Positions 16,985 through 58,508 of a DNA stretch of 64,000 bases are shown piece after piece (within the stretch, counting starts at the first letter, position 1; each line of letters begins with the position of its first letter). The notes under the pieces are model-generated. The model was not told the origin of the DNA. It did not search any database and saw only the letters and a program-made list of their open reading frames with translations. A program made the translations under genes and the position numbers. The stretch spans positions 1,822-65,821 of the forward strand of contig JAFCDX010000004.1 in the NCBI GenBank assembly GCA_017609465.1, given 5' to 3'. The DNA comes from Candidatus Woesearchaeota archaeon (lineage in GTDB: Archaea > Nanobdellota > Nanobdellia > SCGC-AAA011-G17 > JAFCDX01).

Positions 16985-19900
16985 TTATCTCTTTTTCTTT
17001 TTAGGTCTTGTTTCTTTTTCAACAAGGTCTTCCATTGAACTTATTTTTCTATTTCTGTAAGCTCTTGCACCAAATATTATTGCCAATATCAATATTAAAG
17101 CACCTAATCCAACACCTGAATACAAAAGTATTTTTTCGGTGATTTTTAATGGACCTAATTCAAAGATTATATTTCCTGTTACTTCAGGAGTTTCTTCTTC
17201 ATTATTATTTTCTGGTTGCTCAATTACTTGTGGTATATAATATGTACATGATTCATTTATTTCTGGTTTATTCTTATAACATTTATTTTCATCAATACAT
17301 GTTCTTGTTCTGAATCCATGTTCTGCTACACCTTCTTGTATTACAATACCTGTTGATTTACATGAACTCCATTCAGTACAGTTCCAGTCAGATGTGCATG
17401 ATGCTCCTGAACTACCACCAGATGAACCTCCTGAACTTCCTCCACCACCATTATTATTAGTTGAAGATGCCACTACTTCAATTGTTACATTATCACTATC
17501 AGTTAATCCAAAATTATCAGTTACTATTAATAATGCATTAAAGGTACCTACTCCATAATTATGTGTTGCAGTTATTCCTTTATCATCAATTGAATCATCA
17601 CCATCAAAGTCCCATTCATAAGTCAAACTATCATCTAAAACACCTCCAACATTTATATCTAGACTCCCTGAAGCATCAAAGTTTACTGTTAATGAATCCG
17701 TTCCACTGGTTTTGTCTACTGAAATTTGTGCTGTTGGTGCATAATTTATATAATCTGTTAATGAAGTACAGGTTGAAACTGTAAAAGTTCCTAATTCTGT
17801 TTTAATAGTACCAGAGCAAATTTCCCCATCAATTACATTAGCGTCCTGTAATTCAGCATTTAATAACTCTGAGTTTTCAATGTTCGAATTTGTTGCAGTT
17901 ACATTAAATAATATACTATTATCTATTGTAGATAAATCTACAGTTGAATTATCAATAGTTGAATCAACTATGTTCGAATTTGTTGTTGTTGAATACCAAA
18001 CATGTGAATCCATAATTGTTGACCCTGTAGCATCAGTCATATAGACATCAGATGGGTCTATATATAGATTTACACAACTAAATCCTGTGTATGTTGAGTT
18101 TATTATAGTACAATTATCTACATCCAAGGACCCTCCAGATATAAGATATAATGAACTTCCTTCGAAGTATGAAGCCCCAATGAAATTAGCTATTTCCCCC
18201 ATTATACTTGAATCTGTTATCTCTGAATTTGTCACTGTAGTATCTGGAATTTGTGATGTAAAGTTTAATGGGTAATAAGTTCCATAAATAAATGAATTAG
18301 TTACTGTTGGAGTTCCTATAGTTGTTTGTGTTAAACTTATATCTAATTTTGCAACATCATTCTGTGATGTAGCTTCTATTTGAACATCATAAAATCCTTC
18401 ATCTGCATCATTTATAGTTACAGTAAATGTAGTTGAAGCGCCAACACCCAATGAAATCGAGGAATCACTCAAAGTAATAGAATCAACTCCCCCTGTTAAA
18501 TCAGTGTATGTAATATCATAAATATCTGCTACATTACCTGTATTTGTAATTGTTATTGTATAAATCACGTCATTGCCAAGATCTACTGAACTTGATTGTG
18601 AAGCTGGTGAAAGGTCTATCCCATAAACAGATGGTCCTCCTGTAGCAGATGTTGTAAAACTGTATTCTGTTGATTCTGCTGAGTTATCGCTAGGATCTGT
18701 ACTATTTACAACATAATAATAAGTTGTTGAAGAAGATAATCCAATTAAAGATATTGAGTGGGATAATACATCACTTGTATCGTTTGAAATTAAAGTATAA
18801 GTTCCTGATGTTGTTCCATATTTAACTATCGAATCTGCAATTTCATCAGTATCCCAAGTTATTAAAGCTGAAACATCTGTTATTGAACTACTTTGTACAT
18901 TACTTATTGCTGGTGCAGTTATATCATCATCAATTCCATTATTATACTGTGTTAGTCTATTTGAAGATCCAGGTGTTGGTGCCAATTCCATCCATGTTCC
19001 TGATCCATCTGGTAACATTCCCTCTGATATATTTTCTATGCTTGAAGTATAGCTATAATCAAAAATAATATTACCATAATTATCTCTTAATGTTATACTG
19101 TCTCCTCCATTATTCAATGTAATTCCTGTTTCAGGTCTTCCTAAACTTAAGAAATTTCCAATATTCATAGTTTGACTTGGTATATTGTATAAATCAGTGC
19201 CATCTTCTATTGTAAATCCAGTTAAATCAGTTGAAGTTGTTCCTCTGTTATATAATTCTATAAATTCATCATTTGCTTCATCAATTCCATCAGCCAAAAA
19301 TTCATTTAATGCAATGTCACAATCTTGAACATTTATATTTACATTATCAACACTTTTTGCTCCATTAGTATCTACAGCAACAAAACTTATTGTATAGCTT
19401 TCTCCAGCTGTCAATACTGACATATTCAATTGTGTAGTATCTCCAAGACCGAATGAAGTTCCGTCACCAGAGGTTCCCTGTATTTTGTAGAACCATTCTC
19501 CTTCTAATACTCCATCTTCAGCATCTGTTGCAGTTCCATCAAATGATATATCTGTTATTGTGTTTGTACAATAATTGTTTCCATCCGCAGGTGAATTGAT
19601 TATTACATCTGGTGCTGTGTTTATTGTTATTGTTAAACTATCTGAATCTGAACTATCTTCATCATAAACTGTTAAAGTTACTGTGAAAGTATTTCCTCCA
19701 GTTCCTGTAAATGTGTGGGTTGGATCTGTTAATGAAGCTCCGCTTTCTACAGGACTTCCATCACCAAAGTCCCATTCGTAATTTGATATTAAATCGCTTG
19801 AACTTCCATTTATTGAATTACTTCCATCAAATTGAACAAGTTCTCCTGAGTTTACAATTTGATCAGAACCTGCATCAGCTATAGGATCAACATCATCTAT

Positions 19901-42765: not shown

Positions 42766-43707
42766 TTACTTTCTTTTCCAGTAAAATACACCAATAAGCA
42801 TTGCAACAAAGAATCCTAATATCCAGTATTTTAATATTCCTGATGATTCTGTTTCTGTTGTTGCTGCACCTGTTACTTCTGGAGTTTCTTCTTCAGTATC
42901 TTCTACAACAAGTTCTGCAGAAGCTTCTTTAATGCCTTCACAATTTCCGTAAGTGTATGCTTCTTTGTACATGTCCAAGAAACATGCTCTTGGCTGAAAG
43001 TAAACAGTGTCAATTATGTTCGGTTTTCTGTAATCCCCTTTTAATATTGTTGAAGTTATCCTGTATTTGTCATCAGATATTTTTTCAAGAACTGCATCCT
43101 CTGCCAAAACATTGTCTGCCTCATCAACGAATTCATTGTTTCCGCTTGTGTGTATAAACAAGTCCTGTAATCCAAGAACCTCATTTTCATCTATGTTTGC
43201 ATTTGAAAATTCTATTATCAGTTTTTCATCTTCTGTGTTGTAACAAGTGTCTATTCTTGGCTTGAAATCATCGCATGAATATCTGAATTCAGGGCATTCT
43301 GCATCAAATTCATTTGGAAAAGACAATGCATCAAGATTGTTCAACTTAATCTCGTATGTTCCTCCATCAAACAAGGAATCTGAGAAAAAATAATATTCAG
43401 TATCTTCTCTTAATCTGTCTACTGTTTTGAAGAATCCCAAATTATCTCTTTTGTAAAATGTTCCTGTAAGGGACTTTTCTTCATTTTCATTATCAATATA
43501 AGTCAATTCAATATTATCTGTATTTAAGTTATCTGCTGAAGTGAATCTGAAAAACACTCTCCCCTGTGTAGAGCATCCAAAACCTTCATCATCCCTTATC
43601 ATTCCGCTCTTTTCATCATCGAACTTGATAATGTAATCTGTTCCAAGAAAAGCAAATGCTATGAATATTGTCATGAAAATTCCCAATATATATGCTAGCT
43701 TTTTCAT
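42766..43707 (-). CDS. secreted protein with TPEVTG-TM-basic C-terminal tail
   Basis: Signal anchor. Tail 'EEETPEVTGAATTETESSGILKYWILGFFVAMLIGVFYWKRK'. Lacks the 6-Cys module. Confidence 0.7.
   Translation of the reverse strand: MKKLAYILGIFMTIFIAFAFLGTDYIIKFDDEKSGMIRDDEGFGCSTQGRVFFRFTSADNLNTDNIELTYIDNENEEKSLTGTFYKRDNLGFFKTVDRLREDTEYYFFSDSLFDGGTYEIKLNNLDALSFPNEFDAECPEFRYSCDDFKPRIDTCYNTEDEKLIIEFSNANIDENEVLGLQDLFIHTSGNNEFVDEADNVLAEDAVLEKISDDKYRITSTILKGDYRKPNIIDTVYFQPRACFLDMYKEAYTYGNCEGIKEASAELVVEDTEEETPEVTGAATTETESSGILKYWILGFFVAMLIGVFYWKRK
42868..42885 (-). other. TPEVTG motif codons (copy 2 of 4)
   Basis: The + strand reads acctgttacttctggagt. Confidence 0.6.
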
Positions 43708-43741: not shown

Positions 43742-43954
43742 CTATTTAAGAATTACTTCTCTCAATAAATAATCTCCAATTGGAATCCCAAAGGATAACA
43801 ACAATGTAATATCTGTAGCAAATGCACTAAAATATTCTAATTTTGACATTTCATAATTTCCTTTTAAAGCCTTGTAAGTGTAAATTGGCAAGAGACTAAG
43901 TCCTATATTTTTCAATCCTGTTACTGTATCTATTCTTCTTTCCAGATTTTCCAT
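43742..43954 (-). CDS. small hypothetical protein
   Basis: 70-aa ORF only. Confidence 0.35.
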   Translation of the reverse strand: MENLERRIDTVTGLKNIGLSLLPIYTYKALKGNYEMSKLEYFSAFATDITLLLSFGIPIGDYLLREVILK

Positions 43955-44325
43955 AGTAAATTTTTAATTACAAATTATTTAAATATTTAACTCATTGGAA
44001 TAATATGAACAAGCCATTACTAATAATAGGGGAAATATTGAAAACAATAAAGCTAATGCAAGATAATCTTCACTAAAGAACAATATTGTATATCCACAAA
44101 AATGTGATATCAAGTCATGATATTTCAATAAAATTGTTATTTAAAAATCTTGTTTAATTCTTAATGCTCAAAAATATAGCAAAATATATTAAACCAAAAA
44201 GTAACAAATAACAAACAAATAGTAAACCTTATCTTCATCAATTAACTTTCCTTCTAATTTTTGAATATTTGAATTAAGTAATTTTACCATTAAAATTATT
44301 CAGAAAATCTTTATTTAAAATATTC

Positions 44326-44898: not shown

Positions 44899-44900
44899 TT

Positions 44901-45545: not shown

Positions 45546-45584
45546 ATTTAACCAAAGTTATTAATATATATAACTTTAGTTTAT

Positions 45585-46196: not shown

Positions 46197-46227
46197 CTTT
46201 TTTTTAAAAATAGAATTTATATAAGGT

Positions 46228-47610: not shown

Positions 47611-47612
47611 TT

Positions 47613-48749
47613 TTATTTCATAAAACCTTTTTCATCAATATAAGGTATTATATTCATAAGATTGTAATTTGGATCCTTTGGAAGAAAAGGAACAATATGT
47701 ACATACTTGTTATTATCATCCTTGTAAGCATTGTTATTCACATAAACCGCGGTTACCGCAGCTTCAAGAGGATTATCAAGCAACAGTATAGTGTATTTTG
47801 ATGTTGTATTCTCTGCAAAATCATTTATAACTTTAAGAGAATGTTCAAGACATGAATTCCCTATGCTTATTTTTCTCTTTGAGAATTTTCCAAATCCAGG
47901 AAATAATCTTTTTTCTCCGAAGTAATCATAAAATTGCTTGGGAGCCTTGTGTTTTTTCCATCTTCCCTTGAACCATGAAATAATTTTGTTTTCCTGTTTC
48001 AATCCAGAATGCTTAACGAAATTGTCTGCATAAAAGAAGCTGTCTCCATCACTCCTGTATTCATAAAAACCTCTTCTGAGTTTTTTTTCTTCTTCAACAT
48101 CAAATGCAGAAAGTATTATTGTGTCATTGATTATCTCTTTAACTTTTTCCTTATCAAATTTTGGAAACATTAACTTGACAGACTCATTATATTTTTCAAT
48201 AATGTTCTTCTTGTTTTTTAATTCACTGCTTTCTAATCTTTCCTGCATATACAACAAAGTATCAAGAGCTATATTCTCTGCCATTCCAATACCAAGATTG
48301 TATTTCTTAACTAATCTAAGTATATCATCGCTTGGAATACTCAAACCTAACCTTTTAATGAGTTTCCAGAAAGCCTCTTCTCTTGTATTTGAGGGATCTT
48401 CCAATAGATCTGCTAATGCATAAGAATAAGACATTCCAATAACCAACTCCCCTTTTCTAAACATTGTATTTGATCTTTCTATATTTACCCTGTGACCCTT
48501 GTCAACACCAACAGTATTTATGCTTCCTGAGAGATTATAGTGAATCCCCATTTCATTAGTATACTTGTTCAGTAACTTTTCAAGGTTTGACAGGAATTTC
48601 TTTGTTGTGGCTTGTCTCTTCGCATATCTTTCATAATATCCTGGGTCCACCAAGGAATTTTCTTCATGCATATCTTCAGGAACTTCTAAAATATCTCTTG
48701 CAGGGTTTTCAAAAAATCCCTTTCTTTCATGTTCATTATTGTTTTCCAT
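47613..48749 (-). CDS. hypothetical protein inside the kinase/FHA/phosphatase operon
   Basis: 378-aa ORF, 2-nt gaps on both sides. No motif recognised. Confidence 0.6.
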   Translation of the reverse strand: MENNNEHERKGFFENPARDILEVPEDMHEENSLVDPGYYERYAKRQATTKKFLSNLEKLLNKYTNEMGIHYNLSGSINTVGVDKGHRVNIERSNTMFRKGELVIGMSYSYALADLLEDPSNTREEAFWKLIKRLGLSIPSDDILRLVKKYNLGIGMAENIALDTLLYMQERLESSELKNKKNIIEKYNESVKLMFPKFDKEKVKEIINDTIILSAFDVEEEKKLRRGFYEYRSDGDSFFYADNFVKHSGLKQENKIISWFKGRWKKHKAPKQFYDYFGEKRLFPGFGKFSKRKISIGNSCLEHSLKVINDFAENTTSKYTILLLDNPLEAAVTAVYVNNNAYKDDNNKYVHIVPFLPKDPNYNLMNIIPYIDEKGFMK

Positions 48750-48751
48750 TT

Positions 48752-49849
48752 TTAAGATTTAATCTGAAGATTAAAGTAAAGATAATACCATGGCACACTT
48801 ACATATCCTTCGGGCCTTTTTTTCTTTTCCAGTGAAATATCAAATTTCTTGTCTTCTGCCCATCTTGCCTTTCCTGCTTCTATATCGACTATAGTTCCCA
48901 TTTCATATATTATCTCAATATCCACATCTACATTTTCAGGGTCAAAAAGATATACCAACCTATGCATTGGGTTATCTTCCTGGGATACAGGTTTTACTGT
49001 TTCTTCCCCTTGTATGTAAAAGTTATAGTTTGTGTAATTATCATTTATATTTAAAGAGAGTTTTCCTCCTCCTGCAGAGCAATCATCAAAATAAATTCCT
49101 TTTTTCATTTTTTTCTTGATATCATCACAAGACATTACCTTTAATGCATAATTTTCATTAAAAACAAATTGCTTTCTTGCCTTATCAAAAACTTTTCTTG
49201 CCTTTTCCACATATTCATCTGCTTTATCCTCATATTTTGAAAATTCCTTTCTCAACATTTCATTTATTTTATGGTCAATGTTTTCTATTGGTTTTCCTGA
49301 ATCATTTCCATTAAATAACATGTCAAATTCTTCATAGGTTTTTTTCATTTCAATAAGATGAGACTTTACAACAAGATCTTCTGTTGAAAATATTAATTCA
49401 AGCATACTGTCATTAACTTCTCTTGCTATACCATACTTTGAATCAGAATCATCAAGAACACTGTCCAAATCACCTGGTTTTTCATAATTTATTATTCTTG
49501 CATGTTGTGAGGAGACTTCATCATCATTTACAAACGCGTGTGATATGATCCTGTTTCTTCCCACTATTATCTGGTTCATTGATGATGACATTTCAAGGAG
49601 CTTCACTATATCATCTTCAAGATTTTTTTCACAATAAAATTCTCCTGTTCTTGGATTTATATAAAACAACCCTGCAGAGATTCCGAGTTTTGTTATCTCT
49701 TTTGAGGCTCCTGTTATTGTGCTCTTTAATTTTTTTCTTTTCTCCCTGTTAATCTGGGTTCCTCTTTTACCTCTATCTATCTTTTTCTCCATAAATTCCC
49801 TTTTTCTTTCGTTGTTTTCCTTTTTCTTGAAAAGATCCTTTAATGCCAT
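48752..49849 (-). CDS. FHA-domain protein
   Basis: 'IIVGRNRIISHAFVNDDEVSSQHARI...LDDSDSKYGIAREVN'. Start set at 'MALKDLF', whose ATG shares one nt with the PP2C stop (TAATG); the track ORF extends to 49879. Confidence 0.65.
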   Translation of the reverse strand: MALKDLFKKKENNERKREFMEKKIDRGKRGTQINREKRKKLKSTITGASKEITKLGISAGLFYINPRTGEFYCEKNLEDDIVKLLEMSSSMNQIIVGRNRIISHAFVNDDEVSSQHARIINYEKPGDLDSVLDDSDSKYGIAREVNDSMLELIFSTEDLVVKSHLIEMKKTYEEFDMLFNGNDSGKPIENIDHKINEMLRKEFSKYEDKADEYVEKARKVFDKARKQFVFNENYALKVMSCDDIKKKMKKGIYFDDCSAGGGKLSLNINDNYTNYNFYIQGEETVKPVSQEDNPMHRLVYLFDPENVDVDIEIIYEMGTIVDIEAGKARWAEDKKFDISLEKKKRPEGYVSVPWYYLYFNLQIKS

Positions 49850-51375
49850 TATGCAATCCTCCTTTTCCTGTATTTGCATCCATTTATTTTTCCTAATTTG
49901 TCAAGAGCCCTGTACATAGACTTTTCACTCATGTTAATCCCTGTATTTCTTTTTATTTTTTTAAGAGCCTCTTCATTAGTTCCTGAGAAATATGCATCTT
50001 TTATGATTTCAAGCTCTTCATAATTTATCATGCTTATATTTGTTTTTCTTTCATGATTAATTTCATTCCATGCATAACTCAAAACCTTTCTCAATTCAGA
50101 TTCATCATCAAGCATTGAGAACATATCTAAAGTATCCTCTTTGCCATTCACTGAATAAAAATCAGCTATATCTCTAACATGATTATAAAAATTTTCCATT
50201 CCTTTTTCTATAACATCATCGGCATTCTGTAAAGTCGCATTTGAATATGACTCAATCAGATCCAACTCAATATCAACAGAAGCCTGCTCTTGCGGAAGCT
50301 CAATTTCCTGTCCTGGATAAATAAGGTCTCCTTTTATTCCATCCTTTCCTTTTCTAACAACCTTATTATCAACATAAACCTTGTCTATTTTTAAATTAGG
50401 ATATTTTTCTGAATTTAATTCAGCTATTTCATTAACTTTTTCTGCTATATCCTTCTCATCGCTAAGATTATATCTTTCCTTTACTATGTTCCATAAGTTA
50501 TCCTCTTTTTTTACAACATGAACATATTTATTTGTATTTTCATTTGATTCATTATTTTTAGGAATATTGCTTGTCATTGAGGTTTTTATCTCTAAATTGT
50601 TTTTTTCAAAAATCTTTTCCATTATTTCTTGATTCTTATTGCAATTCTTTCCTGCAAACAATCCTGATAAACCTCCTATCAATAAAGATGCAGAAATATA
50701 TGCTGCTGTTTTCTTTATTGCGCTTGATTTTAACACATAACGAGGGTCTTCAATATCAATAACTATTACAGAGGCATCATCTTCCTTGCCTGAATTTCTT
50801 ATTATATACTCAACGGATTTTCTTGGATTTTTCCTAACTTCCTTTAGTATTTTATTATCTTCCAAATCAACACCATCAGATGCAAGAACAATCTTGTCTC
50901 CAGCTCTCAAGGGAACATTTCTGTAAAAAGGTTTTAATTCTCCCTTGTAATCAGGTCCAAGAGCCTGGTTCAATTTTCCTTCTTCATTAACATGCTCGTC
51001 TGTAAGTTTTTCTATCATATTGTTTTTTATCAAATAAGCCTTTGAATCACCAACATGAACAATGTCAAGTGAATAATCTCCATCTTCATCATTTATCCTT
51101 GCTGCAGTAAATGTTGTACCTCCAACAAAGACATTGTCTCTCAATTTTCTTATTAGGTCCTCTAGATTCATGTTTCTGTCCTTGTTTAATATGGATCCTG
51201 CAGCAGAAACACACTGCATGCTTGCTTCTCTTCCATTAAAAGTACCGTCTTTGCTGAGTTCACTCACACCATCTGCTATTGCATAAAATCTAAGTTTGTC
51301 AGAAACAAAAAAGGAATCTTCATTATACAACTTTCCTTCCTTAGCCCTGGTTTTCTTATAGGATGCTATCTTCAT
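49849..51375 (-). CDS. PP2C-family Ser/Thr phosphatase - TM - LysM fusion
   Basis: 'YAIADGVS', 'VHVGDSKAYL', 'VLASDGV', 'DDASVIVI'. TM 'AAYISASLLIGGLSGLFAG'. LysM 'YVHVVKKEDNLWNIVKERY...IYPGQEIELP'. Confidence 0.8.
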   Translation of the reverse strand: MKIASYKKTRAKEGKLYNEDSFFVSDKLRFYAIADGVSELSKDGTFNGREASMQCVSAAGSILNKDRNMNLEDLIRKLRDNVFVGGTTFTAARINDEDGDYSLDIVHVGDSKAYLIKNNMIEKLTDEHVNEEGKLNQALGPDYKGELKPFYRNVPLRAGDKIVLASDGVDLEDNKILKEVRKNPRKSVEYIIRNSGKEDDASVIVIDIEDPRYVLKSSAIKKTAAYISASLLIGGLSGLFAGKNCNKNQEIMEKIFEKNNLEIKTSMTSNIPKNNESNENTNKYVHVVKKEDNLWNIVKERYNLSDEKDIAEKVNEIAELNSEKYPNLKIDKVYVDNKVVRKGKDGIKGDLIYPGQEIELPQEQASVDIELDLIESYSNATLQNADDVIEKGMENFYNHVRDIADFYSVNGKEDTLDMFSMLDDESELRKVLSYAWNEINHERKTNISMINYEELEIIKDAYFSGTNEEALKKIKRNTGINMSEKSMYRALDKLGKINGCKYRKRRIA

Positions 51376-51506
51376 CTTAACATTATATGATTAGAGAATT
51401 AATATATAAACTTTTCTAAATTTTATCACTATAAAGTCAGAAAATTATTTTGTTAAATGATATAAATCTTATAATAATTTAAATAACAAAAATAAAGAAG
51501 AAAAAA

Positions 51507-52703
51507 TTATTTTCTTTTTCTGTAATACAGATATCCGCCTGATCCTATTGCCAATAATCCTAAAGCTATCAATAACCATACAACACTTGATCCTGATGTG
51601 CCTACTGCTGCTCCTGTTACTTCAGGAGTTTCATCAACAACTTCAGGTTCTTGTTCAGTTTCTGTAATTTCACAATCTCTGTTTTCTCTTTTTTCTGATT
51701 CTATTTCAGGACATTCTTTTACATCATTACAAAATCTTGTTTGTTCTCCATCAACACATGATGTCCATTCACCACATACCCATTCAGGTATACAAAATGG
51801 ACCAGAACTTCCACCAGATGAACTTCCACCAGATGAACTTGTTGGTGCTGGACATGCTAAATCAGAACCGTCACAATCTTGATCAATTCCATCACCACAA
51901 ATTTCTGTGTTACCAGGGAATCTGTTTCCATCATCATCTGCACAATCTATTTCTGTATTTACACAAAAACTTGTATCTCCTGCACTATAACCATCACCAT
52001 CATTATCTATACATGGTGGGTTTACAACTTCTATTGTAACACTTCCAATAACATCAGTACATGTTTTTTGTATATTACCTTCCACTAACATATTTATTAC
52101 TAATGTTCCTGCTGTTAATGGTTTTATTACAATGCTTGAAGTTCCATCATTTGATACTGCGCTTTTAGTTGTTGCATAAACTTCTGAAGCCTCTATAATC
52201 TCATCATTAGGTGCTCCTAAAGTTGTATTTTTACCAACTAACAATGCATCTGCTGTTGAAGAAGGATCTATTGAAAATAAAACTCCTGTTGCTCCTCTTC
52301 TTGCATCAAAACCATTATTAACACCATATAATGAATTAACATAAAATTCCAGTGTTTGTTCTGTGTTTATTTCTATTGGACCTGCTATTTCGCTTGTTAT
52401 TATTTCTTCTGGACACCCTTGCAATTCATTTGTCAATGTTCCAAAGAATAACTGGTCTAAAAGACTTGAATCCGCGCTTGTGACAGAACCATCTCCATTA
52501 AGGTCATATATGTCTGCACATTCATAATCTCCTTGTATACTTGTATCTCCTAATACTATACATTCATCAACACCACTTAAATCAGTGGATAATATAGAAC
52601 AATCTCCATTAGAATCCCCTAATCTACATACTCCTAATTCCTTCGCTCCTAAAACTAAAGGAAGCATAAGTAAAATTCCTGCTAATATTAATATTTTTTT
52701 CAT
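51507..52703 (-). CDS. surface protein: dockerin-like repeats, MopE-like Cys/Asp motif, GS linker, 6-Cys module, TPEVTG tail
   Basis: 'GDSNGDCSILSTDL' and 'DLNGDGSVTSADSSLLDQLFFG'. 'DCADDDGNRFPGNTEICGDGIDQDCDG'. 'CIPEWVCGEWTSC'. 'DETPEVTGAAVG..YLYYRKRK'. Confidence 0.75.
   Translation of the reverse strand: MKKILILAGILLMLPLVLGAKELGVCRLGDSNGDCSILSTDLSGVDECIVLGDTSIQGDYECADIYDLNGDGSVTSADSSLLDQLFFGTLTNELQGCPEEIITSEIAGPIEINTEQTLEFYVNSLYGVNNGFDARRGATGVLFSIDPSSTADALLVGKNTTLGAPNDEIIEASEVYATTKSAVSNDGTSSIVIKPLTAGTLVINMLVEGNIQKTCTDVIGSVTIEVVNPPCIDNDGDGYSAGDTSFCVNTEIDCADDDGNRFPGNTEICGDGIDQDCDGSDLACPAPTSSSGGSSSGGSSGPFCIPEWVCGEWTSCVDGEQTRFCNDVKECPEIESEKRENRDCEITETEQEPEVVDETPEVTGAAVGTSGSSVVWLLIALGLLAIGSGGYLYYRKRK
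51612..51629 (-). other. TPEVTG motif codons (copy 3 of 4)
   Basis: The + strand reads tcctgttacttcaggagt, identical to copy 1. Confidence 0.6.
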
Positions 52704-52779
52704 TTTTATTTACTATTTAGTTAAACAAAGTCTATTTAAAGGTTTCGGTATGGATTTTGTTCAAAAATAAAGAAAAAAA

Positions 52780-53961
52780 TTACTTCTTTTTATAGTATAA
52801 ATACCCGCCAATACCAACAACTAACAATCCCAAGGCAGTTAGTAACCATATAATATTTGTATTATTTTCTGTTCCAACAACAGCGCCTGTTACTTCTGGT
52901 ACTTCTGGTGTTTCTCTACTGGTTTCTTCAACGATTTCAGATTCCTCAACAACTTTTGGATAATATGTGCATGTCCTTGCTGTTTCTGGCTTGTTTTTAT
53001 TACAAGAATTCAATAAAATACATTCTCTTGTTCTTAATCCATCTTCACTACAAGGAACTTCATTCCAATCTTGGCATTCCCATTCTGGTTTACAAGATGA
53101 ACCTCCACCTGAACTTGTTGATGGACTTGTTGGTGATGGTGCAGGAGTTTTTCCTAAAACACCATCACAATTCTCATCAACATCATTATCATTTATTTCT
53201 GTTGCATTTGGATTTATTGAAGCATTATTATCATTACAATCAACATCAGAAGTAAAATTATCATTATCATAATCAATGTAATAATTCATTACTCCAATAC
53301 ATATAATATTTTCCATTTCAACATTCCAGGATTCATTATTCAAGTAATAACATGTTCCATTAAAATTGCTATTTATTAGTTCATCAAAATTAAACAAGTT
53401 TATGTCTGAACCATAACCAACAGTCATATATCCGTTATAAAACCCAAATATATTTCCTTGTATGTTTGTCTCATTTATGTATCCATCTCCAATCAAGGCT
53501 TCAAATTCCTTGTATCCTAAAATATAAAGATTATCTCCATCTTTTACCTCCCCACTAAGAAAATATCCTTCTGCATTAAAACCTTGTTCATTGGACACAA
53601 AACATCCAAAAGTATTATTTTCTGCAACACAAAACCCATTATAAGGATTTTTTATTGATATGTCTGGAGACATTTCAGTTTCATTATTCAAGATTATTTT
53701 ACCATAAAAAATACCATCTATTGTGTCTCCTATGAAAACACCATCATAAACAACAGTCCCTAATTGAGTATCATCCCAACCATTATACAAATTACAAGTT
53801 ATTGGCCAAGAATCAAAAACAGTATAATTTAATTCATTAACTGTAAAAGAAGCTTCAGAATTTGTCTTAAATTCATTATAATTTATTTCAAATTCATAAA
53901 CATTTGCTAATACCAACGGTAAAACTAGTAATATTATTAATGTTATCAGTATTTTTTTCAT
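52780..53961 (-). CDS. surface protein paralog: unrelated ectodomain, MopE-like motif, GS linker, 6-Cys module, TPEVPEVTG tail
   Basis: Signal 'MKKILITLIILLVLPLVLA' is close to the neighbour's. 'DCNDNNASINPNATEINDNDVDENCDG'. 'CKPEWECQDWNEVPC'. 'RETPEVPEVTGAVVG...YLYYKKK'. Confidence 0.75.
   Translation of the reverse strand: MKKILITLIILLVLPLVLANVYEFEINYNEFKTNSEASFTVNELNYTVFDSWPITCNLYNGWDDTQLGTVVYDGVFIGDTIDGIFYGKIILNNETEMSPDISIKNPYNGFCVAENNTFGCFVSNEQGFNAEGYFLSGEVKDGDNLYILGYKEFEALIGDGYINETNIQGNIFGFYNGYMTVGYGSDINLFNFDELINSNFNGTCYYLNNESWNVEMENIICIGVMNYYIDYDNDNFTSDVDCNDNNASINPNATEINDNDVDENCDGVLGKTPAPSPTSPSTSSGGGSSCKPEWECQDWNEVPCSEDGLRTRECILLNSCNKNKPETARTCTYYPKVVEESEIVEETSRETPEVPEVTGAVVGTENNTNIIWLLTALGLLVVGIGGYLYYKKK
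52885..52911 (-). other. TPEVPEVTG motif codons (copy 4 of 4, PEV duplicated)
   Basis: The + strand reads gcctgttacttctggtacttctggtgt. Confidence 0.6.
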
Positions 53962-54087
53962 TTATGTCATCTCCTTTGGTTTAATTACCATTTATTTACC
54001 GGTAACTAATAATATTTAAATCTTTCGGTATTTAATTGGTAAGTAATTGGGTATAACAATTATAAAGGGTAATAATATGTATATTAT

Positions 54088-54351
54088 ATGGTAAACAAAT
54101 GGTATCTTGTGGGAAAAGTGAATGCAAGCACCTACAGGATAAAAGTTCTCAAAGAATTAAACAATAACAACAAAACACCAAGTGAATTAGAAAATATATT
54201 AAAAATAAAAATTTCTCATATAAGTCGCGCCCTTACAGAATTAACAGAAATAGGATTGGTAAAATGCTTAACACCTGAATTAAGAAAGAACAAGATATAT
54301 TCAATTACAAAAAAGGGAAAAGAAGTTCTCAAGATGTTATCAAAACCTTAA
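54088..54351 (+). CDS. small winged-helix regulator (ArsR/MarR-like)
   Basis: 'YRIKVLKELNNNNKTPSELENILKIKISHISRALTELTEIGLVKCL...KNKIYSITKKGKEVL'. Confidence 0.7.
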   Translation: MVNKWYLVGKVNASTYRIKVLKELNNNNKTPSELENILKIKISHISRALTELTEIGLVKCLTPELRKNKIYSITKKGKEVLKMLSKP

Positions 54352-54613
54352 AAGACAGTTTATTGGATTTTTTCACTGCCCATATTACTTTTTTTGCTTT
54401 TGACATTTCCTGTATCATTAACGCGTATGTTTTTGCCTTTTTCATGTCAACATTTCCCTTGACAAAGAATATAATTGATTTTCCATTATTTTTATTTATG
54501 AATTTTCTAATCTCCATAAAATTTCCTTCCTTACACACGTAATTTTTGCTGTCACACAAAACATCAAGAATATCCTTAAGTTCACAGCCTTTCTTGTTCA
54601 AGCATTCTAACAT
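54329..54613 (-). CDS. hypothetical protein
   Basis: 94-aa ORF only. Its 3' end overlaps the convergent wHTH gene. Confidence 0.4.
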   Translation of the reverse strand: MLECLNKKGCELKDILDVLCDSKNYVCKEGNFMEIRKFINKNNGKSIIFFVKGNVDMKKAKTYALMIQEMSKAKKVIWAVKKSNKLSFKVLITS

Positions 54614-54652
54614 TTTATTACCAATTATTTACCACTTATATATTTTTTGATT

Positions 54653-55018
54653 TTAATATTCATATATGATATCTATTTTTATTCTGTCATCTTTTTCACT
54701 ATTTTTTGACATCCATAAAATATTGGAATTACCATCAACATGTTTAGATATTGTTTCAATTATCTCACTTGCCTTTTCAAGAATGAAATTCTCTCCAACT
54801 TTCACGCTTATTATGGCCCCATTTATTTTTCTTGGAATTTTTTTTATTTTCTTTTTTAATTCATTCATATCAAAACTTCTTATTTCTATTTTATCAGAAT
54901 TTTTTAATGTTGCAATGACATCATGAGAATCAAAATCATTGTCATAAAGAAAATCTATTAATTTCCTTGCCACTTTCTTGTTTTTCCTAAAAATCTCCTT
55001 TAATCTGTCTCTTGTCAT
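54653..55018 (-). CDS. hypothetical protein with faint FtsZ C-terminal-domain-like pattern
   Basis: 'INGAIISVKVGENFILEKASEIIETISKHVDGNSNILW...DRIKIDIIY' resembles the FtsZ C-domain strand-helix pattern. Weak. Confidence 0.4.
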   Translation of the reverse strand: MTRDRLKEIFRKNKKVARKLIDFLYDNDFDSHDVIATLKNSDKIEIRSFDMNELKKKIKKIPRKINGAIISVKVGENFILEKASEIIETISKHVDGNSNILWMSKNSEKDDRIKIDIIYEY

Positions 55019-55136
55019 GTATTTTGAAATATTAAATTATATTTAAACCTTTCTATTATTTTGTATATTTGTATATAAATTAGTATAATAATAAACAATA
55101 AAAAGACTTATAAATAGATTAGTATAATAAACTAAA

Positions 55137-55736
55137 ATGGCAAAAGTTCTATTAGCCACATTATATACTGCAGATCCTGTACTATTGGCTGCAAACAGGC
55201 TTGGCCCTGACAGATTAATATTATTTATCGATAAAGAGCCGAATAACGAACAGAAAAAATCCCTTAAATTAATAAAAGATTCCATTGGGAGGGTTGTTGA
55301 TGTAAAGGAAGTAAAGACAGATGTTTATGATATTGTTAATGTTGCCAAAAAATCCGTTGAAATAATTGACATGCAGCCAAAGGATGATTACATATTCATT
55401 AATATCACTTCTGGAAGAAAGACAAAGGCTCTTGGATTGTTGTTTGCTGCTTATGCACGTCATGAGAGAATAAAGAAAATAGCTTATAACCCTGAAGAGG
55501 ACAAGACTTCTGTTATTTATCTTCCAAAATTATCCTTTAAATTAACTGAAAGCCAAAAGAAAATTCTTGAAATTCTTGATAAAAAAGAAAATCTTAATTT
55601 TGCTGAACTTGCTGAAAAAGTTGAAATTTCAAGGGCAATGCTTTACAGAAATATTGATGAGTTAAGGGATTTGGACTTGATAAACACTGAAAACGGATTT
55701 AAGTTAACGGATGCAGGGAGAATTGCTGTTCTCTGA
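55137..55736 (+). CDS. CARF-like Rossmann domain + wHTH regulator (Csa3-like)
   Basis: N-terminal 'KVLLATLYTADPVL...RLILFID', 'FINITSGRKTKALGLLFAAY'. C-terminal 'SQKKILEIL...LNFAELAEKVEISRAMLYRNIDELRDLDLI'. This is the Csa3 architecture. Confidence 0.55.
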   Translation: MAKVLLATLYTADPVLLAANRLGPDRLILFIDKEPNNEQKKSLKLIKDSIGRVVDVKEVKTDVYDIVNVAKKSVEIIDMQPKDDYIFINITSGRKTKALGLLFAAYARHERIKKIAYNPEEDKTSVIYLPKLSFKLTESQKKILEILDKKENLNFAELAEKVEISRAMLYRNIDELRDLDLINTENGFKLTDAGRIAVL

Positions 55737-55752
55737 CAAAAAAGAGGAAAGA

Positions 55753-55926
55753 ATGGAAAATGTTGAAACAGATAATTTGGATGAAATTAAGAAGAAATTA
55801 AAAGATTATAAGGAAGATGATATAAAATTTAATGAACCTCATTTTTCAGACCAACTTATGCTCAGAGAAGGAAAGAAGGAAGATGTCATTAGGAACATAT
55901 TAAATCATGGGGCATATTTTAAATAA
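55753..55926 (+). CDS. short ORF, possibly a truncated gene fragment
   Basis: 'MENVETDNLDEIKKKLKDYKEDDIKFNEPHFSDQLMLREGKKEDVIRNILN' stops right at the MNT promoter. Confidence 0.3.
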   Translation: MENVETDNLDEIKKKLKDYKEDDIKFNEPHFSDQLMLREGKKEDVIRNILNHGAYFK

Positions 55927-55929
55927 TCA

Positions 55930-55943
55930 AAAGATTTATAAAG
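55930..55943 (+). promoter_or_regulatory. BRE/TATA promoter element (aaagatttataaag)
   Basis: Exact 14-mer, 22 nt before the ATG at 55965 (leaderless geometry). Confidence 0.45.
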
Positions 55944-55964
55944 TTAAGTTTACTCATATAAACT

Positions 55965-56513
55965 ATGATTAATATATATAAACTAAAGTTAACAATATTA
56001 CAGCAAGAGATTTTAAGATTCCTTTTTATAAATAATGGAGAAACATTCAATGCCAGAGATCTTGCAAGAAATTTAAAGGTTTCACAAACTGCAATCTCAA
56101 AAGCCCTACCTTCTCTTGAAGAATTAGATTATATAAAAGTACAAAAAAACAAAATATCAAAAAGATTATCCATCAATTTAAATACAGAAAATCCCTTGAT
56201 TAATGGTCTAAAAAGATCTGAAAACTTAAAAATTTTCTATGAATCTGGATTAGCAGATTTCTTATCAGATAATTTACCAGGGTGCACCATAATACTTTTT
56301 GGCTCATATTCATGGGGGGATGATACAATAAATTCAGATATTGACATTGCAGTCATTGGGACAAAAAAAAGGGATTTAAAGATTGAAAGATTTGAAAGAA
56401 TACTCAAAAAGAAGATTATCCTTCAATTTTATCCAGATTTTAAAGATATTCATAAACATTTAAAGGAGAATTTATTCAATGGCATATTGATAAGCGGGGG
56501 GATAGAATTATGA
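55965..56513 (+). CDS. wHTH + minimal nucleotidyltransferase (MNT, antitoxin-like)
   Basis: 'IILFGSYSWGDDTINSDIDIAVIG' (GS...SD.D). N-terminal 'FNARDLARNLKVSQTAISKALPSLEELDYI'. Confidence 0.85.
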   Translation: MINIYKLKLTILQQEILRFLFINNGETFNARDLARNLKVSQTAISKALPSLEELDYIKVQKNKISKRLSINLNTENPLINGLKRSENLKIFYESGLADFLSDNLPGCTIILFGSYSWGDDTINSDIDIAVIGTKKRDLKIERFERILKKKIILQFYPDFKDIHKHLKENLFNGILISGGIEL

Positions 56514-56953
56514 AATTGCCAAAAAAATTTGAAGAGTATTTAAACCAAGGCATTATAAGAAAAATACATCCAAACAAATCAAGGGCAAATTTCTTAATAA
56601 AGGGATCTAAAAATTCATTGCAAGGTATAAAAGAAATAGTTAAAAAGATAGGTATAAATGATAAAAATTCAAATACAATAATAAAGGATTCTTATGATAT
56701 AATTATGGAAATTATAAGAGCGCAACTCCTGATGAAAGGATATACATCCTCTGGTCTTTATTCACATGAAGCAGAAATATCGTACATGTGGAATCTTGGT
56801 TTTACAGATAATGAGATTTCTTTCGTGAATGAATTGAGGTTTTTCAGAAATGGGATAATATATTACGGAAAGATTCTAGATAAGGAATATGCAACGAAAG
56901 TTTATGAATTCTTAAACAAAGTACTTCCAAAATTAACAAAAATTAATCTTTAA
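56510..56953 (+). CDS. HEPN-like partner of the MNT gene
   Basis: 4-nt overlap with the MNT gene. Helical, with 'ELRFFRNGIIYYG' resembling the HEPN R-x-x-x-x-N/H..Y region. No clear R-x4-6-H seen. Confidence 0.6.
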   Translation: MKLPKKFEEYLNQGIIRKIHPNKSRANFLIKGSKNSLQGIKEIVKKIGINDKNSNTIIKDSYDIIMEIIRAQLLMKGYTSSGLYSHEAEISYMWNLGFTDNEISFVNELRFFRNGIIYYGKILDKEYATKVYEFLNKVLPKLTKINL

Positions 56954-56975
56954 TGGAAAATGAAGTTAAATATCT

Positions 56976-58235
56976 TTAAAGAACCAGTATCCTTTCACCA
57001 ATATTTTCTATTATGTCTTTTTCCAATTCCTTTTTAGAATTACCTATATCAATCTCATCTAATTTTTTTATGGTTTTGTTAATCTCAAATTCATTCTCTT
57101 TTATTTTTGAATCAATCAAGGACTGCTCTTTCTTGATTTTTTCTATCTCATCAGCAAGTTTTATCTCACCAATCTTGTTTTTTAATTCATTAAGCTTCTT
57201 GCTTAAATTATTGTAATTTTCCAGAAAGTCTTTGAAATATTCATTATTGAATCTGTCAGTATTCCCGAGTATCTTGTTTTTCTTGTCTTCTTTTAATTCA
57301 AGCTCCCCTTTCCTGATGGATTCCATCATTTTATCAATAACCTCTGTAATTTCAAGATCTTCATCTTCCAATAATGCCTTTACAGGATCCTCAAGATATT
57401 TTCTTATCAATTTGTCCTTTAAGCTTAATCTTTCATATTTTTTTAATGCTGGCTTGAGTATTGAGAATGAATCATTCATCTCTTTTTTTGCTTTTTCTGT
57501 TTTTTCTTCCAGGATATTCTTTTCATTAATTAAATCAAGAAATTCCCTGTATTCATCGCTTTCCTCAATTGCTTCTATCTGTTTTGTTTTTTCTTTTTTC
57601 TCTTTCTCCATTTTCTGCAGCGCTTTTTTCGAAGATGAGATTTTTTTGTTTATTCTTTCTTCATAATCTTTTTTATTAATTATTTCACTAATCTTGTTTT
57701 TTAATTCTCTTGTTTCTCTTAATTTAGCATCCTCCGATATTTTTTTCATTTTCTTTGTGATTAAGTAATCCAGTTTTCTTAAGTTTCCTGAAATAACATT
57801 AATTTCATTTACAAAAAATTCCTGCAAAACATTGTAGCTTTTTTCCGTACTGTTTGTAAAAATATTAAGATATTCATCAAAAGCAGAATGAAATTCAAGA
57901 ATATTTTCAAAATCATTGGGAAATTCAATTTCATTCAAGAGAGATTCTGTTTTTTCAACATATATTTTCCTGTTTCCCTCCATTATATGCTTGGCTCTGT
58001 CAGGTATATCAGGGTTTTTTAATTCTGAATTTCTTAATTTATCAATATTATCCCTTAAGGTTTTTATCTCATTATATATTTCTTCCTTGATCTTTTCTAA
58101 TTCAGGTTTTTTAGATTCTAATTTTTTCTTAACCAGGGAATCTGCCCACTCATCCAATGCTTCTAATTCAATTTCTTTTATCTCTTTCTCAGGAGAATTT
58201 TTAAAAAAATCAAGGAATCCCATGTTAAATTGCAA
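56976..58235 (-). CDS. long coiled-coil protein
   Basis: 419 aa, Lys/Glu-rich heptad-like sequence throughout. Probable start at 'MGFLDFFK'. Confidence 0.6.
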   Translation of the reverse strand: MQFNMGFLDFFKNSPEKEIKEIELEALDEWADSLVKKKLESKKPELEKIKEEIYNEIKTLRDNIDKLRNSELKNPDIPDRAKHIMEGNRKIYVEKTESLLNEIEFPNDFENILEFHSAFDEYLNIFTNSTEKSYNVLQEFFVNEINVISGNLRKLDYLITKKMKKISEDAKLRETRELKNKISEIINKKDYEERINKKISSSKKALQKMEKEKKEKTKQIEAIEESDEYREFLDLINEKNILEEKTEKAKKEMNDSFSILKPALKKYERLSLKDKLIRKYLEDPVKALLEDEDLEITEVIDKMMESIRKGELELKEDKKNKILGNTDRFNNEYFKDFLENYNNLSKKLNELKNKIGEIKLADEIEKIKKEQSLIDSKIKENEFEINKTIKKLDEIDIGNSKKELEKDIIENIGERILVL

Positions 58236-58508
58236 ATATTTTCTTTTATATTTATTATGGTTTTTCTATTTTAAAGATTTATTTAAAGAATCAAAAATTT
58301 ATAGAATATCCATCAATTCCTTCCAGTTCTCGACAATTTTAATGTTATCAGGATTTCCAAGATTTCCATTAATCATGTTCTTTCAGTCATTATTGAAAAG
58401 ATAGGTATATAATAAAAATCAATGAAAGTACTGTCATAATCCATCAATATCCTGTCTTGCAATGCTTAATTTCATTTTTTGCTCAAAAACCACCATTATA
58501 TAAAAGTT

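What the first reader, a model, noticed from the sequence alone, without database searches (positions are those of the whole stretch)
51507..53961. Adjacent paralog pair with constant ends and unrelated ectodomains (cassette-style surface variation)
The two neighbouring minus-strand genes share near-identical signal peptides (MKKILILAGILLMLPLVLGA vs MKKILITLIILLVLPLVLAN). They also share an identical C-terminal stack: MopE-like Cys/Asp motif, GS linker, 6-Cys module, TPEV(PEV)TG, a TM ending GGYLYY(R/K)K(R)K. The ~230-aa regions between these ends show no similarity I can see. The D-type tail (NKNKPE..TCTYY) is closer to that of the distant giant adhesin (NKNKPEINESCTYY) than to its neighbour's. 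This suggests exchange of end cassettes among surface genes.
Basis: seen in the sequence. Interest (0 to 1): 0.6.

Follow-up and report, generated by a model that had tools for sequence, protein, structure and literature searches.

The report
Archaeal surface genes with shared ends
Two neighbouring genes of a tiny DPANN archaeon encode cell-surface proteins with the same export signal, stalk and membrane anchor but unrelated outer domains. The pair is an old product of module shuffling, not an active switching system, although a related archaeon shows what looks like a fresh swap of the outer domain between near-identical gene ends.

Summary
Genes 51507-52703(-) (A398) and 52780-53961(-) (B393) share a signal peptide (14/20 residues; next best in the genome 9/20). 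They also share one C-terminal plan: MopE motif, Gly/Ser linker, six-Cys TSR-like module, acidic stalk, (P)EVTG, membrane helix, basic tip.

Their ectodomains are unrelated (profile-profile probability 0.15%), and each belongs to its own older family:
- A: a dockerin-like EF-hand pair plus a beta domain.
- B: a ~210-residue all-beta domain, with homologues in two sister genera that carry a dockerin B lacks.

"Cassette-style variation" is only partly supported.
- At residues conserved between A and B, codons match no more often than codon usage predicts (17/40 against 18.7), so the shared ends are old.
- No donor copies, reverse transcriptase or nearby recombinase were found.
- A second assembly 99.8% identical over 18.5 kb has the same ectodomains. 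Its only protein change in this locus is a 9-nt PEV-repeat indel in B's tail.
- In a sister genus, however, two contigs share a 98.6%-identical promoter flank and a ~99%-identical tail around unrelated gene bodies.

Earlier agents of this scan had already described the tail and the TSR-like module on this same window.

The parts
51507..52703 (-). Gene A398 (398 aa). Acidic, 18 Cys, single-pass surface protein: signal peptide, dockerin-like EF-hand pair, X beta domain, MopE motif, GS linker, TSR-like module, stalk with TPEVTG, TM helix, RKRK.
   Evidence: ORF and translation; Pfam; composition.
52644..52703 (-). A398 signal peptide, residues 1-20 (MKKILILAGILLMLPLVLGA).
   Evidence: 14/20 identical to B's; next best in the genome 9/20. 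Codons at identical residues match 7/14, expected 6.4.
52452..52622 (-). A398 dockerin-like EF-hand pair, residues 28-84. The only dockerin in the genome.
   Evidence: PF00404 28.3 bits, cut-off 22.9. Single hit in the genome and no cohesin. The family profile hits calmodulin EF-hands and dockerin 4fl4.
52014..52421 (-). A398 'X' domain, residues ~95-230. No Pfam family. Always follows the dockerin in its relatives.
   Evidence: Homologues P0016, P0017, P0019, P0021 and P0023 cover query residues 3-209 as one unit. The AF2 single-sequence model was useless, pLDDT 38.
51855..52013 (-). A398 MopE-like Cys/Asp motif, residues 231-283. Cys-bracketed type, as in P0019.
   Evidence: PF11617 27.4 bits; collinear alignment with P0019.
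51672..51854 (-). A398 Gly/Ser linker (residues 284-303) and six-Cys TSR-like module (residues 304-344).
   Evidence: Sequence. Module identities: closest are C12_678 48% and G2773 47%; B only 38%.
51510..51671 (-). A398 tail: acidic PEV stalk, TPEVTG (51612-51629), spacer, TM helix, RKRK.
   Evidence: TIGR01167 LPXTG_anchor 16.2 bits against cut-off 15.9. 64% identical to B's tail, a mutual best match.
52733..52748 (-). BRE/TATA-type promoter element CCGAAACCTTTAAATA, 30 nt upstream of the A398 ATG. A398 has its own promoter.
   Evidence: The element is generic: 28 copies in the genome, upstream of varied genes.
52780..53961 (-). Gene B393 (393 aa). Acidic, 13 Cys, 10 N-x-S/T sequons: signal peptide, Y all-beta ectodomain, MopE motif, linker, TSR-like module, stalk with PEVPEVTG, TM helix, KKK.
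53278..53904 (-). B393 'Y' ectodomain, residues ~20-228. All-beta; no Pfam family and no PDB fold match.
   Evidence: Homologues: P0007 44%, L028 35-38%, G004 478 aa 29-36%, G007 507 aa ~30%. AF2 pLDDT 55-80 over this part. Best Foldseek E 0.036, TM 0.14.
53158..53277 (-). B393 MopE-like motif, residues 229-268. The YIDYDNDxFxSDVDCNDN type is conserved through the Y family.
   Evidence: PF11617 35.4 bits; invariant columns of alignments A1 and A2.
52960..53157 (-). B393 Pro/Ser/Gly linker (residues 269-289) and six-Cys TSR-like module with NKNKPE..CTYY (residues 290-334).
   Evidence: 63% identical to C12_620, 49% to G2773, 38% to A. Foldseek rank 48 is the TSR-like pleiotrophin domain, prob 0.89 over 52 columns.
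52783..52959 (-). B393 tail: acidic stalk, PEVPEVTG (52885-52908), spacer, TM helix, KKK. It includes a 9-nt tandem repeat CCAGAAGTA x2, one unit of which (aligned at 52891-52899) is absent from the second assembly.
54013..54028 (-). BRE/TATA-type promoter element CCGAAAGATTTAAATA, 52 nt upstream of the B393 ATG, followed by a GGAG.
16985..17450 (-). 3' end of the 2773-aa adhesin gene: GS linker, TSR-like module of B's subtype, ETPEVTG, TM helix.
42766..42900 (-). 3' end of the 313-aa surface protein gene: ETPEVTGAATTET.. tail, TM helix, KRK. This tail subtype recurs in a sister genus (L028 and L041, 49-51%).

Best explanation
A398 and B393 are two separately transcribed, single-pass, acidic cell-surface proteins of a small-genome DPANN archaeon (0.8 Mb, 30% GC). 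They are built on a common chassis used across this archaeal order:
- a Sec-type signal peptide for export;
- a variable outer domain;
- a stalk made of MopE-type Cys/Asp motif(s), a Gly/Ser linker, a disulphide-rich TSR-like module and an acidic PEV-rich segment;
- a short x-[VI]-T-G motif;
- one membrane helix and a basic stop-transfer tip that holds the protein in the membrane.

The chassis presents two different binding heads. A carries a Ca-binding dockerin-like EF-hand pair plus a beta domain. B carries a sequon-rich (presumably glycosylated) all-beta domain.

The two heads, with their adjoining MopE motifs, come from two distinct, older protein families. The pair-specific likeness of the signal peptide and the tail reflects an old local event, either tandem duplication of a chassis gene followed by import of a foreign head, or conversion of the ends between neighbours. 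Since then the likeness has been kept by selection on the protein, not by ongoing exchange.

Heads, dockerins, TSR-like modules and tails are reshuffled among such genes by homologous recombination at the conserved ends on evolutionary time. In a sister genus such a replacement looks recent.

Shown: architecture, family membership, lack of homology between the heads, saturation of synonymous sites, the strain comparison, and the shared flanks in the sister genus. Inferred: surface location, adhesion or host-contact role, recombination as the mechanism, and any processing at the xTG motif.
For: Architecture and Pfam hits. Each gene has its own BRE/TATA element and a T-rich 3' flank.

The ends are specific to the pair: signal peptide 14/20 against a next best of 9/20; tail 64%, a mutual best; the C-terminal stack is the best hit in 61 genomes, 98.6 against 47 bits.

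The interiors belong to different families. A 56-331 is collinear with P0019 (dockerin-X-MopE-TSR), 28% identity, E 9e-28. B 17-361 is collinear with the G004 478-aa protein, E 1e-35. The X and Y profiles are unrelated.

Module combinations vary within the Y family: dockerin present or absent, TSR-like module present or absent, different tails.

The event is old. Identical codons at identical residues are 7/14, 5/10 and 5/16, against 6.4, 4.7 and 7.6 expected. Nucleotide identity of the shared ends is 62-69%.

A second assembly at 99.8% identity has the same heads.

A seemingly recent swap in a sister genus: L028 and G004:C104 share a 144-nt 5' flank (98.6%) and a ~143-nt 3' end (~99%) around unrelated bodies, and both forms occur in sample Ga0180007.
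Against: No experiment or proteome shows surface location or processing.

The order of events (duplication then head import, or conversion of the ends) cannot be resolved with modules of 20-45 residues.

The signal peptide type MKKIL..LL.LP also occurs on the G007 homologue (10/20 by my own hand count). Part of the signal-peptide likeness may therefore be inherited family character, not a pair-specific event.

The sister-genus case rests on short metagenome contigs. L028 is 1593 nt and both of its ends fall in the shared segments. A chimeric assembly, or two paralogous loci instead of alleles, cannot be excluded.

Confidence: 0.65

Rival explanations
1. Active cassette switching. The locus is a programmed variation system in which ectodomain cassettes are swapped in and out between the constant ends during the life of a population, giving antigenic or host-range variation.
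For: The layout looks the part: constant ends with unrelated middles. The genes lie in an accessory region with defence-type neighbours (AbiEii and CARF families among L027's called genes). In the sister genus, contigs break at the shared ends in several assemblies. The three strain differences in the locus all fall within 103 nt of B's tail.
Against: No silent or partial copies of either ectodomain exist anywhere in the 0.8-Mb assembly. Shared ends are only 62-69% identical in DNA, too low for efficient homologous exchange. No reverse transcriptase was found, and the three tyrosine recombinases lie on other contigs. Two assemblies at 99.8% identity have identical ectodomains. No flanking inverted repeats of note.
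Confidence: 0.05
2. Convergence only. The ends look alike because every exported, anchored protein of this organism must fit the same signal peptidase, translocon and anchoring or sorting machinery. No shared descent or exchange of ends is involved, and the adjacency is coincidental.
For: x-[VI]-T-G tails occur on many unrelated proteins across the order. The promoter element is generic. Synonymous sites carry no trace of common descent.
Against: Other proteins of the same genome with the same motif (D313, G2773, C33_78, C12_561) have quite different signal peptides and TM helices, so the machinery does not demand the A/B sequence. A and B are mutual best matches for both ends and are adjacent. 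They are two of only three MopE-bearing proteins in the genome. Their similarity is collinear from promoter to 3' flank.
Confidence: 0.15
3. Plain tandem duplicates. One ancestral gene was duplicated, and the two ectodomains diverged beyond recognition under diversifying selection.
For: The genes are adjacent, on the same strand, of nearly equal length (398 and 393 aa) and collinear from promoter to terminator.
Against: Each ectodomain has its own recognisable relatives elsewhere, with conserved family-specific motifs. The two family profiles show no relationship. The MopE motifs follow the ectodomain families, not the pair. The TSR-like modules are not each other's nearest relatives.
Confidence: 0.05

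Closest known systems
Gram-positive LPXTG surface proteins (sortase substrates; TIGR01167 / PF00746)
   Same: Many unrelated ectodomains share an N-terminal signal peptide and a tripartite C-terminal end: a short motif ending in T-G, a hydrophobic helix and a basic tip. A398 scores 16.2 bits on TIGR01167 against a cut-off of 15.9.
   Different: The motif is (P)EVTG, not LPXTG. It lies 10-15 residues ahead of the helix. No sortase was detected in the genome. Archaea have no peptidoglycan to link to. B393 falls below the cut-off (14.2 bits).
Archaeosortase/exosortase systems (PGF-CTERM with ArtA; pacearchaeosortase NF033505 with PACE-CTERM protein NF033506)
   Same: The C-terminal signal is tripartite. 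The genome encodes a pacearchaeosortase (121 bits, cut-off 80).
   Different: The best NF033506 match in the genome lies next to the enzyme on another contig, though at 92.8 bits it is below the cut-off of 110. A398 and B393 do not match NF033506. The motif differs from all named archaeosortase signals. No processing enzyme can be assigned to the xTG tail.
Helicobacter pylori Hop-family paralogues babA/babB (own knowledge, not tested here)
   Same: Surface-protein paralogues have conserved 5' and 3' ends and divergent middles. Recombination through the shared ends moves the middle parts between loci. The sister-genus pair L028 and G004:C104 has this layout at DNA level.
   Different: Those are bacterial outer-membrane beta-barrel proteins, and the exchange is frequent and documented. 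Here the A/B ends have decayed to 62-69% DNA identity, and no exchange is seen between two strains.
Rapidly diversifying cell-surface proteins of Nanoarchaeota (Jarett et al. 2018, PMC6142677)
   Same: [quoted passage not shown] The authors interpret this as host-interaction genes evolving fast.
   Different: That study reports point variation. Here the variation is by whole modules, and the two strains compared show almost none.
Cellulosomal dockerin type I modules (PF00404)
   Same: A398 residues 28-84 pass the Pfam cut-off and show two EF-hand-like Ca loops.
   Different: No cohesin was detected in the genome. The domain is N-terminal, carries extra cysteines, and is always followed by the X domain in its relatives.

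Membership tests
LPXTG / sortase-dependent surface proteins | LPXTG pentapeptide before the hydrophobic segment | tested here: not met
   The motif is T-P-E-V-T-G; only the T-G is shared.
LPXTG / sortase-dependent surface proteins | Hydrophobic helix plus basic C-terminal tip, scoring over the TIGR01167 cut-off | tested here: inconclusive
   A398 scores 16.2 bits against a cut-off of 15.9. B393 scores 14.2, below it. PF00746 gives 14.0 and 14.3 against a cut-off of 20.
LPXTG / sortase-dependent surface proteins | Sortase (PF04203) encoded in the genome | tested here: not met
   No match at E <= 1 in the 89%-complete genome.
Pacearchaeosortase substrates (PACE-CTERM, NF033506) | Match to NF033506, usually next to the enzyme gene | tested here: not met
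   A398 and B393 have no NF033506 hit. The best genome match (92.8 bits, below the cut-off of 110) lies at C26:92862-93998, beside the enzyme gene at C26:94108-94632.
Dockerin type I (PF00404) | Score over the Pfam gathering cut-off, with a duplicated Ca-binding loop | tested here: met
   A398 residues 28-84, 28.3 bits against 22.9. The family profile hits EF-hand pairs and dockerin 4fl4. B393 has none.
Dockerin type I (PF00404) | Cohesin partner in the same organism | tested here: not met
   PF00963 finds nothing at E <= 0.1.
MopE-type metal-binding motif (PF11617) | Score over the Pfam cut-off | tested here: met
   27.4 bits (A) and 35.4 bits (B) against a cut-off of 27. Only three proteins in the genome carry it.
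Thrombospondin type-1 repeat | Pfam TSP_1 match, or a TSR fold with a layered Trp/Arg core and three disulphides | tested here: inconclusive
   No Pfam hit. The pattern C..W.C..W..C..G..R.C is present. In the B393 model the module matches the TSR-like pleiotrophin domain (prob 0.89, 52 columns), but the local pLDDT is low. An earlier agent (e1-2870534) reported a TSR-like fold.
Programmed cassette or diversity systems (pilE/pilS-type conversion, shufflons, DGRs) | Silent donor copies or template repeats sharing DNA identity with the expressed gene | tested here: not met
   A genome self-comparison finds no repeat involving C31:53328-55782. Within the locus there is nothing above 77 nt at 71%.
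Programmed cassette or diversity systems (pilE/pilS-type conversion, shufflons, DGRs) | Dedicated recombinase or reverse transcriptase at the locus | tested here: not met
   No RVT_1 match in the genome. The three integrases lie on contigs C20, C23 and C24.
Programmed cassette or diversity systems (pilE/pilS-type conversion, shufflons, DGRs) | Variation of the cassette between closely related strains | tested here: not met
   The second assembly (99.8% identical over 18.5 kb) has identical ectodomains, plus a 9-nt indel and two synonymous changes in B's tail.
Mosaic paralogues with conserved DNA ends (babA/babB-like) | Near-identical DNA at the 5' and 3' ends with an unrelated middle | tested here: not met
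   Not met for A/B in this genome: 62-69% nucleotide identity, with codons randomised. Met for L028 against G004:C104 in a sister genus: 98.6% over 144 nt at the 5' end and ~99% over ~143 nt at the 3' end.

The most novel reading that the evidence does not exclude
DPANN archaea of this order diversify their host-contact surface by homologous recombination through conserved gene ends: the promoter/signal-peptide region on one side and the stalk-xTG-TM tail on the other. Whole ectodomain bodies would then be replaced between strains or loci, with the tail serving both as anchor or sorting signal and as a recombination handle. On this reading the A398/B393 pair is a decayed product of that process, and the G004-population contigs are a fresh one.
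Probability: 0.3. Interest if true: 0.7.

Novelty: new variant of a known kind. Interest (0 to 1): 0.42.

Why it matters
DPANN archaea live attached to host cells, and almost nothing is known about how they recognise hosts. These results give three usable points.

1. A recurring chassis (signal peptide, MopE, linker, TSR-like module, xTG tail) marks the displayed, exchangeable binding heads. It offers a simple way to list candidate host-contact proteins in any such genome.
2. Two previously unnamed ectodomain families (X with its dockerin, and Y) are defined, with alignments.
3. There is a concrete, checkable case in a sister genus where unrelated gene bodies lie between near-identical ends. 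If confirmed by long reads, it would be direct evidence that these archaea swap surface heads by recombination, much as some bacterial pathogens do.

For this locus itself the result is sobering: the pair is old and stable.

Tried and rejected
- Pacearchaeosortase as the processing enzyme. I first assumed the genome's pacearchaeosortase processes the PEVTG tails. Earlier notes pointed to a dedicated substrate, and the test showed the best NF033506 match (below cut-off) next to the enzyme and no match for A or B. I dropped this as the default.
- Synteny through the flanking PP2C-LysM gene. It has no homologue in five family genomes, so the locus cannot be followed by its flanks.
- Word-based homologue search with either ectodomain. 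It found only self. The exhaustive HMMER search and an alignment query were needed.
- AlphaFold2 of A398 from a single sequence gave pLDDT 38 and was unusable. The B393 model (pLDDT 55) had no credible PDB neighbour (best E 0.036, TM 0.14; weak beta-propeller-like hits discarded).
- Exact look-up of the L028 protein found no record.
- The promoter element shared by A and B looked pair-specific within the window (2 hits). It is a generic consensus genome-wide (28 hits upstream of varied genes).
- The variant alleles in B's tail were checked against A's tail as a possible conversion donor. The result was inconclusive.
- Literature searches for pacearchaeosortase, and for DPANN with dockerin, returned nothing.
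Full report
**Setting.** The window is contig C31 (bases 1822-65821) of a 0.80-Mb, 36-contig, ~30% GC genome rated 89% complete. The genome encodes a pacearchaeosortase (NF033505, 121 bits against a cut-off of 80) and an archaeal-type SecY (my reading of an ORF printed). It is therefore a small-genome DPANN archaeon. The finding covers two adjacent minus-strand ORFs: A398 (51507-52703) and B393 (52780-53961).

**Checking the observation.**
- The two signal peptides share 14 of 20 residues. Against the first 20 residues of all 1220 ORFs of at least 80 aa in the genome, the next best match to either is 9/20.
- BLASTP aligns only the C-terminal ~200 residues (32% identity, E 3e-22) and nothing in the first ~200.
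- In a six-frame search of 61 related genomes, B393 is by far the best hit of A398's C-terminal half (98.6 bits, next 47).
- Pfam recognises a MopE-type motif in both proteins and a type-I dockerin in A only.
- Both proteins end in acidic stalk, (P)EVTG, a 10-15-residue spacer, a TM helix and a basic tip. From PEVTG to the end they are 64% identical, a mutual best among 20 tails compared.
- B's six-Cys module is 49% identical to that of the 2773-aa adhesin, 63% to that of a 620-aa protein on contig C12, and 38% to A's.

"Identical stack" means identical order of modules, not identical sequence.

**Are the middles really unrelated?** Yes, as far as sequence methods reach.

An exhaustive HMMER search with A's residues 21-232 found a small family in which a dockerin-like EF-hand pair and a following ~130-residue beta domain (X) travel as one unit. 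The unit sits at the N-terminus, in the middle, duplicated, or at the C-terminus of otherwise different surface proteins (P0016, P0017, P0019, P0021, P0023). One member, P0019, has A398's full plan (dockerin, X, MopE, TSR-like module, tail) and aligns collinearly with A398 residues 56-331 (28% identity, E 9e-28).

B's ~210-residue domain (Y) has its own relatives:
- a 478-aa protein in family genome G004 (E 1e-35) and a 507-aa protein in G007;
- a 480-aa metagenome protein (L028);
- a 413-aa protein, P0007 (44% identity).

Profile-profile comparison of the X and Y alignments gives probability 0.15%.

An AlphaFold2 model of B393 built on five sequences is all-beta in the Y region (pLDDT 55-80) but matches no PDB fold credibly. 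The single-sequence model of A398 was unusable.

**What the relatives say about history.** The Y family shows free recombination of modules.
- The G004 and G007 proteins carry an N-terminal dockerin that B393 lacks and A398 has.
- P0007 and L028 lack the TSR-like module.
- L028 has an extra domain.
- The tails differ: APAVTG in L028, and no xTG in P0007, G004 or G007.
- The MopE motif follows the head. B's YIDYDNDxFxSDVDCNDN type is invariant through the Y family. A's Cys-bracketed type resembles P0019's.

So the interiors of A and B descend from two different families, while their outermost ends resemble each other more than they resemble the ends of their own relatives. Other PEVTG proteins of the same genome (D313, G2773, the 78-aa C33 protein, C12_561) have different signal peptides and helices. 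The likeness is therefore not a genome-wide requirement. This pattern calls for a pair-specific event at the ends: duplication of a chassis gene with import of a foreign head, or conversion between neighbours.

One caution applies. The G007 protein's signal peptide is also of the MKKIL..LL.LP type (10/20 by my own hand count), so part of that likeness may be an old family character.

**Is the exchange recent or ongoing here?** No.
- A word-7 blastn between the genes finds nothing longer than 77 nt at 71% for A against B.
- At residues identical in both proteins, identical codons number 7/14 (signal peptide), 5/10 (motif region) and 5/16 (TM helix). Genome codon usage predicts 6.4, 4.7 and 7.6. 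Synonymous sites are thus fully randomised, and the likeness is held at protein level.
- A genome self-comparison finds no other copy of any part of the locus.
- No reverse transcriptase was detected, and the three tyrosine recombinases are on other contigs.
- A second public assembly (JGI 3300033148, contig Ga0366832_1001995) matches window 42780-61342 at 99.8%, with 23 differences. In the 2.45-kb locus there are three, about the number expected from the overall rate. All three lie within 103 nt of B's tail: two synonymous changes, and loss of one unit of a 9-nt tandem repeat that turns PEVPEVTG into PEVTG. Both ectodomains are identical.

**Evidence that such exchange does happen in this archaeal family.** Contig G004:C104 (NCBI GCA_018816585.1, JAHIVQ010000065.1) reads as follows: promoter flank X, a 189-aa secreted protein gene, then a 510-aa gene. 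The 510-aa gene encodes a beta-helix head, MopE motifs, a GS linker and an APAVTG tail.

Contig Ga0180007_10137812 (L028) comes from the same sample as L041/L114 (Ga0180007_10088427), which carries the 510-aa gene. It starts with the same flank X: 144 nt with 2 mismatches, the identity ending two bases after the ATG. It continues with the unrelated Y-type 480-aa gene. It ends with the same tail: 90% over 224 nt, beginning right after the GS linker, and about 99% over the last ~143 nt, including the stop codon and the 11 nt up to the contig end.

The two forms may be alleles of co-existing strains or two loci with duplicated ends. Because L028 is short and both its ends lie in the shared segments, an assembly chimera is not excluded.

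**Function.**
- Each gene has its own BRE/TATA-type element (52733-52748 and 54013-54028), of a consensus found 28 times in the genome upstream of varied genes, and a T-rich 3' flank. They are separate transcription units.
- Both proteins are strongly acidic and Cys-rich. B has 10 N-glycosylation sequons and A has one.
- A carries the only dockerin of the genome, and no cohesin was found.
- I infer two membrane-anchored adhesin-like proteins that present different binding heads on a common disulphide-stiffened stalk.
- Whether the xTG motif is a cleavage or sorting site is open. No sortase was found. The best match to the pacearchaeosortase's PACE-CTERM partner family lies next to the enzyme on contig C26, though below the family's cut-off, and A and B do not match that family.

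**Comparison with known systems.**
- The layout works like Gram-positive LPXTG proteins, in which many heads share one export signal and one anchor signal. It fails that family's defining tests: motif, sortase and wall.
- The DNA-level pattern in the sister genus resembles mosaic surface paralogues such as H. pylori babA/babB (own knowledge).
- Fast evolution of DPANN surface proteins has been reported as SNP density in Nanoarchaeota (PMC6142677), not as module replacement.
- Earlier agents of this scan had already described the tail (e1-2870533) and the TSR-like module (e1-2870534) on this same window. New here are the two ectodomain families, the dating of the A/B likeness, the strain comparison and the sister-genus replacement.

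**Verdict.** It is a new variant of a known kind, of moderate interest.

Noticed in passing
G000:C33:42403-42639 (+), outside the window: A 78-aa 'chassis-only' gene with its own BRE/TATA-like element. It encodes a signal peptide, a 20-residue acidic stalk, HPEVTG, a spacer, a TM helix and ERK, with no ectodomain at all. It lies between the ThrRS gene and a 644-aa surface protein gene. In G007 (L030) the corresponding place holds ThrRS, a 700-aa homologue and then the Y-family 507-aa gene, so B393's family member sits in a different genomic context there.
   Followed up: partly
window 52885-52908 (indel aligned at 52891-52899): The 9-nt tandem repeat CCAGAAGTA x2 (PEVPEV) in B393's tail is a single unit in the second assembly (P0006, 390 aa). 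Two synonymous changes lie at 52807 and 52909. All three differences of the 2.45-kb locus fall within 103 nt.
   Followed up: yes
window 51612-51629, 52885-52908, 42766-42900 and 16985-17450; also G000:C33 and C12: All seven EVTG motif copies in this genome use the codons GTA ACA GG. Genome usage of GTA for Val is 0.32 and of ACA for Thr is 0.58. Relatives use varied codons (ATT ACA, ATA ACT, GTT ACT). The neighbouring TM codons of A and B are randomised. Nucleotide-level uniformity confined to the motif core is unexplained; it could be short-patch conversion or selection on the RNA or DNA.
   Followed up: partly
L018:609-2548 (G004:C30): The G004 Y-family gene (478 aa) overlaps by 4 nt an upstream 168-aa gene with an archaeal pilin-like N-terminus (MNKKKRGVSPLIATILIIGFTIVLAVLI...). 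This recalls the pilin-like partners of surface proteins noted elsewhere in this genome (e1-2773702).
   Followed up: no
window 54660-54701 and 55709-55873: Strain differences cluster here: a 1-nt indel at 54701, a 7-nt indel at 55731-55737 and a 2-nt indel at 55872-55873. In the second assembly the CARF/wHTH gene is called as 248 aa (L027:5451-6197), against a 199-aa ORF in the window (55137-55736). One of the two assemblies therefore carries a frame-shifted or truncated copy.
   Followed up: no
G000:C26:103118-104369 and C26:48702-49951; also C26:2600-2900 and window 8044-8342: The genome has a 1.25-kb internal repeat at 88% identity, beginning just downstream of a TSR-module protein gene (C26:46799-48430). 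A 302-nt repeat at 89% links contig C26 to the region just downstream of the 1039-aa gene in this window.
   Followed up: no
L112-L114 (G004:C104 and equivalents): Two contigs of the beta-helix gene region from different sources (L113 ENA, L114 JGI) begin at the same internal point of the 189-aa gene. All three (with L112) are only 2.1-2.5 kb long. This fits a strain-variable hotspot that fragments assemblies.
   Followed up: partly
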